Shown here piece after piece: positions 5,848 through 10,307 of a DNA stretch of 48,656 nucleotides. The notes beneath the pieces were generated by a model. That model saw only the letters and a list, made by a program, of their open reading frames with translations. It searched no databases and was not told the DNA's origin. Source of the DNA: a virus (Duplodnaviria; Heunggongvirae; Uroviricota; Caudoviricetes); IMG/VR virus record IMGVR_UViG_2534681762_000009, positions 1-48,656 of that record. One strand, 5' to 3'. The translations under genes and the position numbers were made by a program. How positions within the stretch are numbered: position 1 is the first letter of the stretch; each line of letters begins with the position of its first letter.

Positions 5848-6267
5848 CTATGATGCGTTTTGTGCTTTCTTTTTACGGATTTCTTCGTAGATCATATTGT
5901 AATACTGTTTTTTCTCTTCAAGAGTTTTTAATAAGTTATCCGCTTCACTTTCTGGCAGTTCGTCTAAGAGATCTAAAAAAATACGTTGTCGTGGCGTTAG
6001 AACCCTTGTTTCATAACTGGAGGCTGTGTTCGTTGATGATGAAACGATACCATCCATCCATCCCCGGGGTAACCCAAAGGACTCTTCGATAATCTCCACC
6101 ATATCATCAGCGATCCGTTTTTTTCCCTTTTTCCCCTCTGGGTACAACATTCTTGATACATAAGAAGGCTCGCGCCCGATCTTTCTGGCCACGTTAACCG
6201 CTTTACCATCGCATTTCTCATCACGAATTTTGATGAGTTGCTGTCGTCTAAATTCATATTTGTCCAT
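5848..6267 (-). CDS. Prophage repressor (HTH; DicA/RacR/CI-like)
   Basis: 139-aa ORF with HTH segment (KAVNVARKIGREPSYVSRM), divergent from cro-like gene, flanked on both sides by related palindromic operators. Confidence 0.75.
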   Translation of the reverse strand: MDKYEFRRQQLIKIRDEKCDGKAVNVARKIGREPSYVSRMLYPEGKKGKKRIADDMVEIIEESFGLPRGWMDGIVSSSTNTASSYETRVLTPRQRIFLDLLDELPESEADNLLKTLEEKKQYYNMIYEEIRKKKAQNAS

Positions 6268-6302
6268 AGGTAAATAATAGATGCGATTACTGCAAGGTAA
6301 AC

Positions 6303-6343
6303 AACCTGTGGGTATTGACTTTTGTTTACCTGTAGGTATTCTT
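6303..6343. promoter_or_regulatory. Right operator/promoter region (OR/PR-like): ACCTGTGGGTAT and TACCTGTAGGTA palindromes overlapping TTGACT -35 and TATTCT -10
   Basis: Inverted repeats TACC-N4-GGTA at 6327-6338 and 6304-6315; TTGACT at 6315-6320 with a -10-like hexamer 16-17 bp downstream, ~25 nt upstream of cro-like start. Confidence 0.5.
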
Positions 6344-6367
6344 TGCTGTGTTTACTAAGGAGTAGCT

Positions 6368-6649
6368 ATGGAAGAATTAAGAATATTTCTCAATTCTCTT
6401 TCGTCAGATGAACAGCGTATGTTTGCATGCGAGTGTGGTACCAGCATCGGTTATCTAAGAAAGGCATTGAGTAAAGGTCAAGTGTTAGGGGCATCGTTAT
6501 GTGTCCTTATTGAGCGAGCCAGTAATGGTGAAGTTACACGTCAGCAACTAAGGCCTTTTGATTGGATGAATATTTGGCCCGAGCTGGAAGATACCAAAAC
6601 GTTAACACAACCACTTTCTAGGAGCTTGATTCATGAAAATCAAGCATGA
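6368..6649 (+). CDS. Cro-like/YdaS-like HTH protein
   Basis: 93-aa ORF, AAGGAG RBS, divergent from repressor; HTH-like segment (CGTSIGYLRKALSKGQ); resembles Rac ydaS position. Confidence 0.65.
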   Translation: MEELRIFLNSLSSDEQRMFACECGTSIGYLRKALSKGQVLGASLCVLIERASNGEVTRQQLRPFDWMNIWPELEDTKTLTQPLSRSLIHENQA

Positions 6650-7058
6650 ACACATCCGCATGGCGATGAATGCCTGGGCGCATCCGGACGGTGAAAAAGT
6701 TCCGGCAGCTGAAATAACCAGGGCTTATTTTGAACTGGGTATGACGTTCCCAGAACTGCATGACGACAGCCATCCGGAAGCCCTGGCTCGCAATACCCAG
6801 AAAATTTTCCGCTGGGTAGAGAAAGACACCCCTGATGCAGTTGAAAAAATTCAGGCGTTGTTACCAGCGATCGAAAAGGCAATGCCACCTTTGCTGGTGG
6901 CCAGAATGCGCAGCCACAGTTCAGCTTATTTTCGGGAGCTGGTGGAGACGCGGGAGCGACTGGTGAGAGACGCTGATGATTTTGTCGCAGTGGCAATCGC
7001 CGGTTTCAATCAGATGAACCGTGGTGGCCCGGCAGGAAATGCTGTGGCAGTGCATTGA
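6633..7058 (+). CDS. CII-like/YdaT-like protein
   Basis: 141-aa ORF overlapping the cro-like gene end by 17 nt; position of cII in the lambdoid map. Confidence 0.5.
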   Translation: MKIKHEHIRMAMNAWAHPDGEKVPAAEITRAYFELGMTFPELHDDSHPEALARNTQKIFRWVEKDTPDAVEKIQALLPAIEKAMPPLLVARMRSHSSAYFRELVETRERLVRDADDFVAVAIAGFNQMNRGGPAGNAVAVH

Positions 7059-7123
7059 GTGATAATAGCCATATCGAATCGCTTCCGGCAACTCGTGAGT
7101 AAAAAGATTCGGTATCAGAAGAG

Positions 7124-8200
7124 GTGAGTATGGCTAACGCCTGGCTCAGATTATGGCATGACATGCCAAATGACCCTAAGTGGCGAACAATTGCCAGGGT
7201 GTCAGGGCAGCCAATTGCAACAGTGATGGCAGTGTATATCCACCTCCTGGTGAGCGCGTCACGAAATGTCACGCGAGGTCACATTGATGTCACGACAGAA
7301 GATTTGGCAAGTGCGCTCGACGTGACAGAAGAGGTAATTGATTCAATTTTGCAGACGATGCAGGGGCGGGTACTTGATGGTGATTTAATCACTGGATGGG
7401 AAAAACGCCAGGTGCTTAAAGAGGACAACGGCAATATTTCGCAAACCGCAAAATCTCCTGCAGAGCGCAAGAGGGCGCAGCGAGAGAGGGAAAGAAAGCG
7501 GGAACAAAATGGCGATTGTCACGGCGCATCACGAAATGTCACGCACATGTCACGACGAGTCACGACATATAAAGATACAGATAAAGATACAGATCAAGAA
7601 GATCAAAACACTATGGTCCATGGCGTAAAAAACGCCACGAACCAGGCAGGGGATGTTCAGACCGTCAATCCTGGTCAGCCAGCAGGCACGATACCGGAAG
7701 CCGATTCAGCGTATGCGCTGAAAGCCGATTCGGGCGCTGTGCAGCAGGTGATGACCCAAAGGCCGGAACAATCACACCAACTGCAGCAGCCTGAAGCCGA
7801 TTCCGCCATTCAGCGGGAAGCCGATCGGGTAGTCCCGGAAAACACCGGGCTGTCTGTGGGACGAGTGGATTATCCGGATGTGTTCGAACAGGTCTGGCGG
7901 GAGTACCCGTTGCGTGCCGGAGCAAACCCGAAGAAATCCGCTTTCAGTGCCTGGAAGGCCAGATTACGCGAGGGGGTGCCACCAGAGGCCATGCTGGATG
8001 GCGTGAGGCGTTACGCAAGATACTTGGCGGCTACCGGGAAAACGGGAACGGAATTTGTTCAGCGAGCGACGACGTTTTTTGGACCGGACCGGAATTTTGA
8101 GAACCCCTGGTTGCTCCCGGTAAGCGGCACGAACAACCAGCGTTGTGTGAATCATATTTCTGAACCGGATAACGAAATTCCGCCGGGCTTCAGGGGGTAA
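7124..8200 (+). CDS. Replication initiation protein (O-like), origin iterons embedded in coding sequence
   Basis: 358-aa ORF with AAGAGG RBS; contains two clusters of GTCACG-type iterons followed by an AT-rich tract inside the gene, the lambdoid ori arrangement. Confidence 0.65.
   Translation: MSMANAWLRLWHDMPNDPKWRTIARVSGQPIATVMAVYIHLLVSASRNVTRGHIDVTTEDLASALDVTEEVIDSILQTMQGRVLDGDLITGWEKRQVLKEDNGNISQTAKSPAERKRAQRERERKREQNGDCHGASRNVTHMSRRVTTYKDTDKDTDQEDQNTMVHGVKNATNQAGDVQTVNPGQPAGTIPEADSAYALKADSGAVQQVMTQRPEQSHQLQQPEADSAIQREADRVVPENTGLSVGRVDYPDVFEQVWREYPLRAGANPKKSAFSAWKARLREGVPPEAMLDGVRRYARYLAATGKTGTEFVQRATTFFGPDRNFENPWLLPVSGTNNQRCVNHISEPDNEIPPGFRG
7259..7295. repeat. Iteron cluster 1 (4 x TCACG repeats; includes 16-bp TCACGAAATGTCACGC)
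   Basis: gtcacgaaatgtcacgcgaggtcacattgatgtcacgac; the 16-mer is repeated exactly at 7529-7544. Confidence 0.5.
7518..7610. repeat. Iteron cluster 2 (5 x (G/A)TCACG at ~10-bp spacing) plus AT-rich tract: putative ori
   Basis: gtcacggcgcatcacgaaatgtcacgcacatgtcacgacgagtcacgacat followed by ataaagatacagataaagatacagatcaagaagatcaaaaca. Confidence 0.55.
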
Positions 8201-8240
8201 GTGTTAATTTCTGGTCATGAGGTAATTTTCAGGAGGGCTT

Positions 8241-8663
8241 GTGGCAAAAGTTTTTACACAAGAAGAGCGGGAAAAAATTAAAGGGCAGGTTGTTGAACTC
8301 GTACGCCAGAGTGGGCGCGAGACGTTACGACAACTGGAAACTAAAACTGGGGCAACAAGATATCTGATGAGCGTTCTGGCCAGAGAGCTGGTTGCCAGTG
8401 GCGATGTATACAACTCTGGTTACGGGTTATTCCCGTCTGAACAGGCGCGTAAGGACTGGCAAAATGCCCGTAAAAAGCTCTCAAGGGCAAAGCTGAAGAA
8501 ACCATCTGCGGTTGATCCGGACCTTATCTGGTCATTACCTGACGGAGAAATACGTCGCTACGACAGGCGTCAGAACATAATCTGTCGCGAGTGCCGGAAG
8601 AGCGAAGTTATGCAGCGCATATTGTCGTTTTATCAGGGTAATTTTCAGAAGGTGCTGTTGTGA
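8241..8663 (+). CDS. Hypothetical protein in replication module (position of P/helicase loader but too small)
   Basis: 140-aa ORF, GTG start with GGAGGG RBS, immediately after O-like gene. Confidence 0.5.
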   Translation: MAKVFTQEEREKIKGQVVELVRQSGRETLRQLETKTGATRYLMSVLARELVASGDVYNSGYGLFPSEQARKDWQNARKKLSRAKLKKPSAVDPDLIWSLPDGEIRRYDRRQNIICRECRKSEVMQRILSFYQGNFQKVLL

Positions 8664-8768
8664 GCCAAATTAACAATCGGAACTTCGTGAAGAGAAAGCA
8701 TAATCCAAATCTGAATAATTAAGTTCAGCACTGTAAATAAAATTTAATCCTTAACTGGAGGTATATCT

Positions 8769-8981
8769 ATGTCAAATACACAGAAAATTATTAACACTGA
8801 AAAATATAACGAGTGGGTGAAAAAATTCTCTGAACAGATTTTTAAAATTACTGGCGACGAGAATGTGGCAAAAAATGAATTAGAACCGTGGACACCTGAA
8901 GGAAACGCACCAAATTATTGCTGGTGGGAAGTTGATCCGGTTGATGCTGCAAATGAAGCCATGAGTTACCACAACGATTAA
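8769..8981 (+). CDS. Small hypothetical protein (nin-like region)
   Basis: 70-aa ORF with GGAGG RBS; followed by a GAAA-tetraloop hairpin (8992-9007). Confidence 0.55.
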   Translation: MSNTQKIINTEKYNEWVKKFSEQIFKITGDENVAKNELEPWTPEGNAPNYCWWEVDPVDAANEAMSYHND

Positions 8982-9013
8982 TGTCGGGAGGCCGCCCGAA
9001 AGGGCGGTAAGAA

Positions 9014-9232
9014 ATGACTACATTATTCAGAAAAGAATATCCGCAAAAAAGTAGAGCGACAGAATTTTTGTTTCTCATTCTGTTTATCGTATTGATGATA
9101 CCGATATCCCCTCTAATTTTTGTCTGGGCAATCGGGAAAATAATTGAGCCAGTTACTGAATTGTATACCGACGTTGTATGGGCGTCGTTCAACACACTGC
9201 ACAATAAAATTAATCCGTATAAGGAAAACTGA
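9014..9232 (+). CDS. Small predicted membrane protein
   Basis: 72-aa ORF with one long hydrophobic segment (FLFLILFIVLMIPISPLIFVWAIG). Confidence 0.4.
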   Translation: MTTLFRKEYPQKSRATEFLFLILFIVLMIPISPLIFVWAIGKIIEPVTELYTDVVWASFNTLHNKINPYKEN

Positions 9233-9233
9233 T

Positions 9234-9497
9234 ATGGCAACTTTGACAAAAAAAGAACGGGCATGGTTGAACGAATTACAGGAAGTTCTTGATCGCTGTC
9301 CATCACCGAAAAAAATTGGCTTTTACACCATTGGCGATAAAAGCATTTACCTGTATGACCTACGCCGCATGGATGAAATCATGGAGGCTCTTGATAATCG
9401 TTCGTCGATGGATTGGTGTGTTGCTGTTCATGATATGAATGCAGGGTTTGATGAAAAGATTTTGTTCCCCTCATCAGTTGAAAGCACTGCGGGTTAA
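9234..9497 (+). CDS. Small hypothetical protein
   Basis: 88-aa ORF from ATG with AAGGA RBS (MATLTKKERAWLNEL…). Confidence 0.5.
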   Translation: MATLTKKERAWLNELQEVLDRCPSPKKIGFYTIGDKSIYLYDLRRMDEIMEALDNRSSMDWCVAVHDMNAGFDEKILFPSSVESTAG

Positions 9498-9507
9498 GGA
9501 GTAACAC

Positions 9508-9675
9508 ATGACCACTATTACCAAAGAACGTATTGAATTGTTCATTAAAAACCCGCTTGAAAACGGGCTTACCCGTGGTGAACAAATGGAACTGGCACGG
9601 ATTGCGCTGGCATCGCTGGAAGCAGAGCCGGTTGTGTTCTGGTTTGAAAAATATCAAGAAGGGGCTACGGCATGA
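9508..9675 (+). CDS. Small hypothetical protein (55 aa), paralogous N-terminus to the next gene
   Basis: Not in supplied ORF track (<60 aa); AAGGAG RBS; [12 protein letters not shown]… ; stop overlaps next start (ATGA). Confidence 0.45.
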
Positions 9676-10016
9676 CGACTTTTACCAGAGAGCAGTTAAT
9701 AGCTCACGCAGAGGAGACTATTGAAGCACAGAGACTGTGCATACCGGGCACAATCGACCATGACATCATCCGCACATATAAGATGGATATTGCTGTTCTG
9801 GAAATCGCACTGGTATCGCTGGCAGCAGAGCCAGCCGGTAAATTGCATGAATACAAACCAGTGGGATATCAGCGTCTGGTCGATGAGTTAACCATGCTGG
9901 TAAAGCAGTTAACCTGGCAACTGAGGAAAGCGAAGCCAGACTGCAAATTACCGGATAAGGCGATGAGTTATCTGGAGCGGAACGGACTGATAAGCGTGGA
10001 GGATATTTTACGATGA
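9672..10016 (+). CDS. Small hypothetical protein (114 aa)
   Basis: [15 protein letters not shown]… shares N-terminal pattern and IAL(A/V)SL(E/A)AEP segment with preceding ORF; ATGA-coupled to neighbours. Confidence 0.55.
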
Positions 10017-10096
10017 CCTGGCCTGAAGCATTAACAACGGTAGGAATTGCGATGGCGGTGGCGCTGGTGGTGTATTCGATTTGCCGCTGGGGATAA
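10013..10096 (+). CDS. Possible 27-aa membrane micro-protein
   Basis: [27 protein letters not shown]; ATGA-coupled to upstream gene; speculative. Confidence 0.3.
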
Positions 10097-10307
10097 AAAC
10101 GGTTTGCGGGAAAAGGAGAGTTAAGTAGAATTGCAGCGGGTGCTTGAGGCTATCTGTCTCAGGCATGAACACCAAAAGGCAGATAGAGAAAAGCCCCAGT
10201 TAACATTACGCGTCCGGCAAGACGCTTAACATTAATCTGAGGCCATATCTATGCTCTACACACGTAGGTTAGCCTCTTACGTGCCGAAAGGCAAGGAGAA
10301 GCAGGCT

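What the first reader, a model, noticed from the sequence alone, without database searches (positions are those of the whole stretch)
7255..7610. Two iteron clusters and an AT-rich tract inside the replication initiator gene
Cluster 1 (7259-7295) and cluster 2 (7518-7566) each contain four to five (G/A)TCACG repeats at roughly helical spacing and share an exact 16-bp element TCACGAAATGTCACGC. Cluster 2 is followed directly by an AT-rich stretch with repeated AAGATACAGAT units (7567-7610). Lambda has a single iteron block inside O; two blocks about 260 bp apart is less usual and may reflect a duplicated or bipartite origin.
Basis: seen in the sequence. Interest (0 to 1): 0.45.

Follow-up and report, generated by a model that had tools for sequence, protein, structure and literature searches.

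The report
Two-part replication origin inside initiator gene
A very common E. coli prophage carries its likely replication origin inside the gene for its own initiator protein, and besides the usual block of binding sites next to an easily melted stretch it has a second, co-evolving block written into the part of the gene that encodes the DNA-binding domain.

Summary
GTCACG-type units at 10-11 nt spacing form array 1 (7258-7294, four units, plus an inverted copy at 7321-7326) and array 2 (7518-7564, five units). Array 2 abuts a 73% A+T, purine-rich tract (7565-7610). All lie in the 356-aa 'phage replisome organizer' gene (7130-8200).

The units fall in all three codon phases. In 20 relatives from hosts of 34-70% G+C, synonymous codons inside array 1 are frozen while the rest of the domain is nearly saturated.

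In 74 of 80 related loci analysed (the window itself included), a phased array plus an A+T/purine-rich tract sits at the linker. In 59 of the 74 the same core recurs about 200-260 nt upstream. The core differs between lineages (GTCACG, GTAACG, GTGACG, GCAACG, CGAACGC) and both arrays change together.

Best reading: a lambda/SPP1-style origin embedded in the initiator gene. Array 2 plus the tract is the core; array 1 is an auxiliary initiator-binding block. Array 1 is not a duplicated origin, because it has no A+T tract of its own. Its role, helper through looping or brake, is unresolved, and no binding or replication experiment exists.

New variant of a known kind. The module is in 1817 of 5426 complete E. 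coli genomes.

The parts
7130..8200 (+). Initiator gene ('phage replisome organizer'), 356 aa. ATG at 7130 after GAGGTG; the listed ORF starts at GTG 7124.
   Evidence: ORF list. PHROG 3729, E 5e-255. NCBI name. It lies downstream of ydaS/cro-like and ydaT/cII-like genes.
7130..7414 (+). Coding region for the N-terminal winged-helix-like DNA-binding domain (residues 1-95).
   Evidence: AlphaFold2 pLDDT is 80-91, with H29-45, a loop, H56-63, H67-77 and a beta hairpin 78-87. Sub-threshold but full-length match to Pfam PF09681, 16.5 bits against a cutoff of 23.3. The domain is conserved in 80+ loci.
7258..7294 (+). Array 1: four direct units, GTCACG 7258, GTCACG 7268, GTCACA 7278 and GTCACG 7289. 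It spans codons 43-55, the end of helix 1 and the H1-H2 connector.
   Evidence: Synonymous sites are frozen in 20 relatives: GTC ACG 20/20, GGT CAC 20/20, TCA 19/20, GCG 18/20. The core covaries with array 2.
7321..7326 (-). Inverted copy of the unit (CGTGAC on the + strand), in codons D64-V65-T66.
   Evidence: (I6). At least 5 of 6 bases match in 18 of 20 relatives. V65 is GTG in 18 of 18. In L108 (core GTAACG) it becomes CGTTAC through a synonymous GTG to GTT change.
7518..7564 (+). Array 2: five direct units, GTCACG 7518, ATCACG 7528, GTCACG 7538, 7549 and 7559. It spans codons 130-145 in the disordered linker.
   Evidence: A phased chain of at least 3 units lies at the same place in 74 of 80 loci.
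7565..7610 (.). A+T-rich, purine-rich (top strand) tract with 6/12-nt repeats (GATAAA/GATACA). Presumed DNA unwinding element.
   Evidence: G+C is 0.36. A+T is 0.73 and purine 0.71 in the 45 nt after the array. The equivalent tract is richer in A+T than its locus in 72 of 74 loci, mean 0.64 against 0.43. AAGATACAGAT occurs twice.
7614..7644 (.). Inverted repeat / hairpin (13-bp stem, 5-nt loop) bordering the A+T tract.
   Evidence: (I7). Conservation could not be tested, since only a near-identical relative shares it. Its membership in the origin is uncertain.
7859..8200 (+). Coding region for the C-terminal helical domain and tail (residues 244-356). Presumed recruiter of host helicase or primosome.
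   Evidence: AlphaFold2 helices 250-316. PHROG 1701 'DnaD-like helicase loader'. The last 20 residues are nearly identical to the C-terminal end of E. coli DnaT. This domain is swapped among relatives along with the downstream helicase or loader gene.

Best explanation
This is the phage's origin of replication, embedded in the gene of its own initiator in the manner of lambda ori in O and SPP1 oriL in gene 38.

The winged-helix N-terminal domain of the 356-aa replisome organizer recognises a core of about 7 bp, (T)GTCACG. Units repeat every 10-11 bp, so successive monomers would sit on one face of the helix.

Array 2 (five units, 7518-7564) directly abuts a 45-nt A+T- and purine-rich tract (7565-7610). 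That tract would melt once the array is loaded, and the C-terminal domain would then bring in the host helicase machinery. Array 2 plus the tract is the core origin.

Array 1 (four direct units at 7258-7294 plus one inverted at 7321-7326, 260 bp upstream) is a second block of sites for the same protein. It has been written into the codons for a structurally tolerant connector of the DNA-binding domain. Most likely it acts as an auxiliary block that raises local initiator occupancy and cooperates with array 2 by looping the roughly 225 bp between them.

Shown here: the anatomy, DNA-level selection on both arrays, co-variation of the two arrays, and universality of array 2 plus the tract.

Inferred: that the initiator binds these units, that the tract unwinds, that the fragment is an origin, and above all the sign (helper or brake) and looping mechanism of array 1.
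For: 1. Gene identity and position: PHROG 3729, NCBI 'phage replisome organizer', downstream of cro/cII-like genes. In relatives it is followed by DnaC-like, primase-helicase or DnaB genes.

2. The repeats are DNA elements. They occupy three codon phases. Under synonymous redraws 8 TCACG are observed against 1.3-2.1 expected, with 0 of 5000 redraws reaching 8.

3. Purifying selection acts on array 1 as DNA. In 20 collinear relatives, conserved degenerate codons inside array 1 have normalised codon entropy 0.14, against 0.84 for 43 other conserved codons (Mann-Whitney p 7e-7). The only free third position is the one that falls in a spacer.

4. Co-variation. The core was defined from the linker zone alone. 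It recurs in the upstream zone at a mean of 2.95 copies, with at least 2 copies in 59 of 74 loci. Mismatched cores give 0.50. Five core types occur, with at least five switches on a rough tree, and both arrays follow each switch.

5. A phased array plus an A+T/purine-rich tract is present in 74 of 80 loci, and the tract is richer in A+T than its locus in 72 of 74.

6. The layout matches experimentally proven SPP1 oriL: five 10-11-nt units followed by an A+T-rich repeat tract in the linker of gene 38 (PMC5737612, PMC6316719). It also matches lambda ori, with iterons plus an A+T tract in the middle of O (PMC7466680).

7. Array 1 maps to the end of helix 29-45 and the lower-confidence connector 46-55. 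Array 2 and the tract map to a disordered linker. Close variants gain or lose 7-aa (21-nt, two-unit) blocks in both arrays.

8. The domain-swap junction between N- and C-terminal modules lies at the tract. This is as expected if the N-domain and its sites travel together.
Against: There is no experimental evidence for binding, unwinding or origin activity in this family, and four literature searches aimed at this family found no description.

Array 1 is absent from about a fifth of family members, mostly distant ones. It is therefore not essential for the origin type.

Helical phasing between the arrays is only weakly supported. The resultant length is 0.41-0.47 at periods 10.0-10.33 and 0.32 at 10.5, uncorrected. 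No conserved weak sites lie between the arrays. Looping is therefore not supported by sequence alone.

The winged-helix assignment rests on an AlphaFold2 model with no significant structural match.

In iteron plasmids, secondary arrays are usually negative regulators (my own knowledge).
Confidence: 0.6

Rival explanations
1. Array 1 is a negative control element. It would titrate initiator away from array 2, pair with array 2 of the same or a sister molecule (handcuffing), or block RNA polymerase inside the initiator gene so that the protein limits its own synthesis. The core origin reading of array 2 plus the tract stays the same.
For: It has the same sequence and the same DNA-level conservation as the main array, so it binds the same protein. 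It lies inside the transcribed gene, 130 nt from the start codon. It is dispensable in some lineages. Secondary iteron arrays of P1 (incA) and F (incC) act this way (my own knowledge).
Against: A lytic burst gains little from throttling initiation. Array 1 is kept in phages of many genera with very different C-terminal partners. Nothing in the sequence distinguishes a brake from a helper.
Confidence: 0.25
2. Array 1 is a by-product with no function as DNA. Either a conserved peptide (ASRNVTRGH.DVT) happens to be encoded by these words, or there was a recent duplication or gene conversion from array 2.
For: The peptide ASRNVT is encoded in both places. The protein segment is conserved among relatives at about 70% identity.
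Against: The motif is read in three phases. Synonymous positions are frozen over hosts of 34-70% G+C, while the neighbouring spacer position is free. Lineages with other cores have a different peptide there that spells their own core. Family members without array 1 keep the fold with an unrelated connector sequence.
Confidence: 0.03
3. The repeats serve something other than replication initiation. Candidates are a centromere-like site (arrays of 10-11-bp units as in R1 parC), sites for a repressor or host factor, or an RNA or DNA hairpin formed by direct and inverted copies.
For: Direct plus inverted copies could pair (I6). Arrays of 10-11-bp units are typical of ParR-type centromeres (my own knowledge). 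The complement of the unit resembles a -35 hexamer.
Against: The repeats are always inside the initiator gene, and they co-vary with the N-terminal domain of that protein. They are always followed by an A+T-rich tract. The RNA fold is unremarkable, z = -1.0, and there is no Rfam hit. No partition genes are adjacent. There are no DnaA-box or IHF consensus sites.
Confidence: 0.07

Closest known systems
Bacillus phage SPP1 oriL / replisome organizer G38P
   Same: The origin is embedded in the initiator's own gene, in the linker between an N-terminal DNA-binding part and a C-terminal part. It consists of about five direct units at 10-11-nt spacing (GAAACGACAC / GAAAAAGACAC), followed at once by an A+T-rich tract of short repeats, with a purine-rich coding strand. 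Binding and origin function are shown experimentally for SPP1 (PMC5737612, PMC6316719). NCBI names the window protein 'phage replisome organizer'.
   Different: No significant sequence match was found. Neither protein reaches Pfam PF09681 here: SPP1 gave no hit and the window N-domain gave 16.5 bits against a cutoff of 23.3. I saw no second array in the N-domain coding part of gene 38. SPP1's second binding region, oriR, is kilobases away and has its own A+T tract. The C-terminal domain is different (Phg_2220_C).
Phage lambda ori-lambda / O protein (and Stx-phage variants)
   Same: The origin lies in the middle of the initiator gene. It has iterons bound by the N-terminal domain and an adjacent A+T-rich tract. 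The iteron number varies between relatives and adds residues to the protein (PMC7466680). The N-domain and its sites form one specificity module, and the C-domain contacts the helicase loader.
   Different: The protein has no Phage_rep_O homology. Lambda iterons are about 19 bp, four in one block. Here the units are 10-11 bp in two blocks 260 bp apart. This prophage has no P-like or DnaC-like gene next door.
Lactococcal replisome organizers (TP901-1 ORF13, Tuc2009 Rep2009)
   Same: These proteins bind direct repeats located inside their own genes, and the repeats are the origin (PMC8965321).
   Different: TP901-1 ORF13 has an unrelated N-domain (HTH_36) and a DnaB_2 C-domain. It shows no similarity to the window protein. 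Its repeats sit only in the linker region.
Satellite phage P4 ori plus crr (my own knowledge, not checked here)
   Same: The same short octamer iteron occurs in two separated blocks bound by one initiator. The second block is needed in cis, and looping between the blocks has been seen. This is the nearest functional analogy for a helper role of array 1.
   Different: The P4 blocks are about 4.5 kb apart and outside the coding sequence of the DNA-binding domain. The initiator is an unrelated primase-helicase.
Secondary iteron arrays of plasmids P1 (incA), F (incC), R6K (my own knowledge, not checked here)
   Same: A second array of the same iterons lies near the rep gene and modulates the main origin by titration, handcuffing or looping.
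   Different: Those are Rep_3-type initiators with 19-22-bp iterons and non-coding arrays. The arrays mainly serve copy-number control of a stably kept plasmid.

Membership tests
Lambda-type origin with O initiator (Pfam PF04492 Phage_rep_O) | Initiator N-terminal domain homologous to lambda O | tested here: not met
   No Phage_rep_O hit at E <= 0.01 or at E <= 10 for the N-domain.
Lambda-type origin with O initiator (Pfam PF04492 Phage_rep_O) | Origin inside the initiator gene: iterons followed by an A+T-rich tract | tested here: met
   The lambda layout is taken from PMC7466680.
Lambda-type origin with O initiator (Pfam PF04492 Phage_rep_O) | Iterons of about 19 bp, in one block of four (six in Stx phages) | tested here: not met
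   Units of 10-11 nt, in two blocks of 4(+1) and 5.
Phage replisome organizer (Pfam PF09681 Phage_rep_org_N; SPP1 G38P type) | N-terminal domain matches the family profile above its curated threshold | tested here: inconclusive
   PF09681 gives E 0.0085 and 16.5 bits against a cutoff of 23.3, but the match aligns end to end (residues 5-123 to profile 1-119 of 121). Weak PHROG hits to 'replisome organizer' families, 4e-5 and 8e-4. NCBI assigns this name.
Phage replisome organizer (Pfam PF09681 Phage_rep_org_N; SPP1 G38P type) | Short direct repeats plus an unwinding tract embedded in the organizer's own gene | tested here: met
   Same layout seen in SPP1 gene 38.
Phage replisome organizer (Pfam PF09681 Phage_rep_org_N; SPP1 G38P type) | The protein binds those repeats and the fragment supports replication | not testable with these tools
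   Needs footprinting and an origin-cloning assay. The only indirect support is co-variation of the core with protein lineage.
Bipartite origins with an auxiliary initiator-binding block (P4 ori/crr, R6K type) | The same initiator-binding unit occurs in two separated blocks | tested here: met
   Exact 16-mer shared by both blocks. Own core recurs in both zones in 59 of 74 loci. Both blocks follow each change of core.
Bipartite origins with an auxiliary initiator-binding block (P4 ori/crr, R6K type) | The second block is required in cis or stimulates firing; DNA between the blocks loops | not testable with these tools
   Sequence hints only. The inter-array phase shows a weak concentration, R 0.41-0.47 at periods 10.0-10.33 and R 0.32 (p 0.08) at 10.5. 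Array 1 is missing in about a fifth of relatives.
Iteron plasmid origins (Rep_3 type) | Iterons of 17-22 bp, DnaA box(es), and a Rep_3 initiator | tested here: not met
   Units of 10-11 nt. No DnaA-box consensus in 6500-8500 apart from one at 8252, outside the origin. No Rep_3 Pfam hit.

The most novel reading that the evidence does not exclude
Array 1 is a true overlapping code. A surface connector of the initiator's winged helix has been recoded, repeatedly and in step with each change of DNA specificity, so that the gene segment encoding the DNA-binding domain is itself a loading platform for that domain. This would allow cis-preferential loading, possibly co-translational, and loop-driven firing of the adjacent origin.

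In the same reading, the hexamer repeats of the unwinding tract (GATAAA/GATACA), which stay the same while iteron cores change, are a sequence-specific single-strand site for the initiator or for a host factor.
Probability: 0.15. Interest if true: 0.7.

Novelty: new variant of a known kind. Interest (0 to 1): 0.5.

Why it matters
This replication module sits in a third of complete E. coli genomes (1817 of 5426). It also occurs in prophages of Pseudomonas, Aeromonas, Bordetella, Burkholderia, Ralstonia and many others. I found no description of its origin.

The family offers a natural series of specificity switches in which protein and two site arrays changed together: GTCACG, GTAACG, GTGACG, GCAACG and CGAACGC. 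This is a ready-made system for decoding winged-helix recognition.

It is also suited to asking what a second iteron block does. Array 1 lies in coding DNA, so it can be destroyed by synonymous recoding without touching the protein.

Practically, it predicts incompatibility and cross-interference groups among co-resident prophages. It also gives a sequence signature for annotating origins of this type: a phased array of ...ACG units followed by (C/T)AGATAAAGA.

Tried and rejected
Literature:
- Searches for replisome organizer plus iterons, GTCACG plus origin, phage D3 plus iterons, 'two sets of iterons', lambdoid plus replisome organizer, TP901-1 ORF13, and oriJ plus Rac. None describes this family.
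- The r1t organizer paper (PMC136552) is not held.

Structure and homology:
- Foldseek against the PDB gave no significant match. The best hits were MarR-type winged helices at E of about 0.8.
- A profile search of the PDB with the N-domain alignment found nothing.

RNA explanation:
- Rfam found nothing relevant.
- The fold of array 1 has z = -1.0 and the fold of array 2 plus the tract has z = -1.2.

Host-factor sites: no DnaA-box or IHF consensus in the origin.

A second distant site like SPP1 oriR: none in the window.

Duplicated whole origin: rejected, because there is no A+T tract after array 1.

Initiator filament spreading between the arrays: there are no conserved weak sites on the lattice apart from the inverted copy.

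Fixed helical phase between the arrays: only a weak signal that depends on the chosen period.

Plasmid use of the module as natural proof of autonomous replication: 11 records, mostly prophage pieces in large plasmids or mislabelled chromosomes, so uninformative.

Conservation of the 7614-7644 hairpin: only a near-identical relative shares that segment, so it is untestable.

The first scan of viral contigs returned only near-identical E. coli prophages and added no diversity.

Full report
**1. The observation.** The stretch 7255-7610 reads as described.
- TCAC(G/A) begins at 7259, 7269, 7279 and 7290, and again at 7519, 7529, 7539, 7550 and 7560. Spacings are 10, 10, 11 and 10, 10, 11, 10.
- The 16-mer TCACGAAATGTCACGC occurs exactly twice in 48.6 kb, at 7259 and 7529.
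- AAGATACAGAT occurs twice, at 7572 and 7584, within a tract where G+C falls to 0.36.
- TCACG is not over-represented in the window as a whole, with 113 copies against 100 expected. It is the most locally clustered of all 5-mers.
- No other phased cluster of the motif exists in the window.

**2. The gene and its surroundings.**
- Everything lies in the ORF 7130-8200 (+), 356 aa.
- The protein matches PHROG 3729 'replication initiation protein' end to end, E 5e-255. Its C-terminal half matches 'DnaD-like helicase loader' and 'primosomal protein' PHROGs. NCBI calls it 'phage replisome organizer'.
- Pfam gives nothing above threshold. The N-domain alone gives a sub-threshold but full-length match to PF09681 Phage_rep_org_N, 16.5 bits against a cutoff of 23.3.
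- Upstream lie a repressor gene on the opposite strand, then a ydaS/cro-like gene and a ydaT/cII-like gene. Downstream lies a DUF977/Ren-like gene. This is the replication slot of a lambdoid early-right operon.
- The N-domain plus origin DNA is present in 1817 of 5426 complete E. coli genomes and in several sequenced E. coli phages at 97-99% identity.

**3. Codon accident or DNA element?** Three tests agree that it is a DNA element.
- The unit is read in all three phases: TCA-CGA, GTC-ACG, G-GTC-AC and T-GTC-AC-G.
- With the protein held fixed and synonymous codons redrawn, either from the window's codon usage or by permutation within the gene, 1.3-2.1 TCACG are expected against 8 observed. 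None of 5000 redraws reached 8 in either scheme.
- I compared 20 collinear relatives with the same core, from hosts whose loci range from 34% to 70% G+C.
  - Conserved degenerate codons inside array 1 are frozen: GTC ACG 20/20 twice, GGT CAC 20/20, TCA 19/20, GCG 18/20.
  - Mean top-codon frequency there is 0.92 and normalised entropy 0.14.
  - The 43 other conserved codons of the same domain are close to saturation, at 0.52 and 0.84 (Mann-Whitney p 7e-7).
  - The one array-1 codon whose third base varies freely, R49, is the one whose third base falls in a spacer.

**4. Relatives.**
- A tblastn search of phage records with the N-domain found relatives in Aeromonas, Pseudomonas, Ralstonia, cyanobacterial and uncultured phages. 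A scan of one genome per species gave 80 further loci across Gamma-, Beta- and Alphaproteobacteria and a few other groups.
- Read by eye, four phage loci all show the same plan with their own unit:
  - GTCACG in Aeromonas phage pAEv1818 and Pseudomonas phage phi1.
  - CGAACGC in both blocks of an uncultured phage.
  - GCAACG in both blocks of Ralstonia phage Firinga.
- Automated over 80 loci, the most locally clustered 6-mer of each ~3.4-kb locus is in most loci one of two things. Either it is the unit, found at +128..+187 and +350..+450 from codon 1, or it is the hexamer repeat of the A+T tract.
- I then defined the core from the linker zone only.
  - 74 of 80 loci have a phased chain of at least 3 units.
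  - The same core recurs upstream at a mean of 2.95 copies, with at least 2 copies in 59 of 74 and at least 3 in 51 of 74.
  - Cores from other lineages give 0.50 copies.
- Core types are GTCACG, GTAACG, GTGACG, GCAACG(C) and CGAACGC. On a rough tree there are at least five switches, and both blocks follow each one.
- In L108 even the inverted copy tracks the switch, through a synonymous GTG to GTT change in a conserved valine codon.
- The 45 nt after the last unit of array 2 average 0.64 A+T against 0.43 for the locus, higher in 72 of 74 loci. The top strand there is 72% purine. The tract usually opens with (C/T)AGATAAAGA whatever the iteron core is.
- About a fifth of loci, mostly the most distant ones, have array 2 and the tract but no array 1. 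Their connector peptide is unrelated.
- The stretch after array 1 is not A+T-rich, 0.44 against 0.39.

**5. Where the arrays fall in the protein.** An AlphaFold2 model built on 26 homologues gives three regions:
- a confident N-domain (residues 1-95, pLDDT 80-91) with a helix-helix-helix-beta-hairpin order typical of winged helices, followed by a basic helix at 110-127;
- a disordered stretch at 128-243;
- a helical C-domain.

Array 1 (codons 43-55) encodes the end of helix 29-45 and the lower-confidence connector. The inverted copy (codons 64-66) encodes the turn before the presumed recognition helix. Array 2 and the tract (codons 130-160) encode the start of the disordered linker.

No solved structure matches significantly, so 'winged helix' is a model-based description.

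Close E. coli variants differ by 7-residue (21-nt, two-unit) blocks in both arrays. Relatives that swap N- or C-terminal modules break at the tract.

**6. Comparison with known systems.**
- Lambda has iterons plus an A+T tract in the middle of O (PMC7466680). This is the same logic with an unrelated protein, longer iterons and one block.
- SPP1 oriL is experimentally an origin bound by G38P (PMC5737612, PMC6316719). In sequence it looks strikingly like array 2 plus the tract: five 10-11-nt units, then A+T-rich short repeats, in the linker of gene 38. I saw no upstream array there.
- TP901-1 ORF13 also binds repeats in its own gene (PMC8965321). It has a different N-domain, and its repeats lie only in the linker.
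- Two separated blocks of the same unit are known from P4 (ori and crr), R6K, P1 and F. These comparisons rest on my own knowledge and were not checked here.
- I know of no precedent for a second block inside the coding sequence of the initiator's own DNA-binding domain, and I found none in the searches.

**7. Mechanism.**
- Best supported: initiator N-domains load side by side on array 2. The adjacent A+T- and purine-rich tract opens, and the C-domain brings in helicase.
- In this prophage no helicase or loader gene follows. The last 20 residues nearly copy the C-terminal end of host DnaT. Host machinery is therefore probably recruited through that tail. This step is inferred.
- Array 1 binds the same protein. 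This is inferred from co-variation and purifying selection.
- Its role is open. I favour a helper that raises occupancy and loops to array 2, at about 0.4 within an overall confidence of 0.6. The main rival is a brake acting by titration, handcuffing or blocking transcription of the initiator gene (0.25).
- Sequence cannot settle this. The inter-array distance varies from 157 to 309 nt. The phase signal is weak and depends on the chosen period. No intermediate sites are conserved.

**8. Verdict.** It is a new variant of a known kind of origin, in a very widespread and apparently unstudied prophage replication module. Interest is moderate.

Noticed in passing
window 8138-8197 (last 20 codons of the initiator): The C-terminal tail QRCVNHISEPDNEIPPGFRG is nearly identical to the C-terminal end of E. 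coli DnaT / primosomal protein 1 ([20 protein letters not shown]; PDB 6aep, 2ru8, 9zbt). It looks like mimicry of a host replication-restart factor. The paper I read (PMC13377028) does not say what this tail contacts.
   Followed up: partly
window 8200-10100; L001 3361-4101; L002 3397-5226; L004 2640-3939: No helicase or helicase-loader gene follows the initiator in this prophage; the next gene is DUF977/Ren-like. Relatives with the same N-domain are followed by a DnaC-like loader, a primase-helicase or a DnaB-like helicase, and they have different C-terminal domains.
   Followed up: partly
window ~7565-7640; proteins P0045, P0098, P0100, P0055, P0103: The recombination junction between N- and C-terminal modules lies at the A+T tract. 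Some E. coli proteins have a different N-domain with the same C-domain. Others have the same N-domain and arrays with a DnaT_2 (PF17948) C-domain, common in O157 strains.
   Followed up: partly
window 7614-7644: An inverted repeat with a 13-bp stem and 5-nt loop lies immediately right of the A+T tract. It scores as terminator-like on the minus strand. Its position recalls, from my own knowledge, the palindrome beside lambda's A+T tract. Conservation could not be tested.
   Followed up: partly
window 7542-7515, minus strand: A promoter-like pair of hexamers (GTGACA, 16 nt, GACAAT) is built from complements of the array 2 units. The complement of the unit resembles a -35 box, so the arrays might fire or block leftward transcription.
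   Followed up: no
window 7156-7164: GCATGACAT has the complement ATGTCATGC, which matches 8 of 9 bases of the extended unit ATGTCACGC. It is a weak inverted site in codons W-H-D-M, and 11 of 20 relatives keep at least 5 of 6 bases. It may simply reflect the conserved peptide.
   Followed up: partly
related loci, 45 nt after array 2 (for example L127, L133, L153, L159): The hexamer repeats of the A+T tract (GATAAA, GATACA, GAGAAG) stay much the same across lineages whose iteron cores differ, including hosts of 60-70% G+C. No explanation so far accounts for this. They could be a sequence-specific single-strand site and not merely A+T richness.
   Followed up: partly
L129 and L150 (Serratia and Pantoea genomes): The same N-domain is fused to a different C-terminal part (..YYVYFV..GISSNPWAR..). 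These loci have no arrays of this type, but they have CTACGTAGTA-like repeats where array 2 would be.
   Followed up: no
protein P0019 (E. coli, 302 aa, 4 contigs): An in-frame deletion removes most of array 2 and the whole A+T tract. This is probably a prophage that has lost its origin.
   Followed up: no
window 5848-7058: The immunity and early region resembles that of the Rac prophage: a repressor on the opposite strand, then a YdaS_toxin-like gene (sub-threshold Pfam match, 25.8 bits against a cutoff of 30) and a YdaT_toxin-like gene. PHROGs labels these two as cro-like and cII-like regulators.
   Followed up: no
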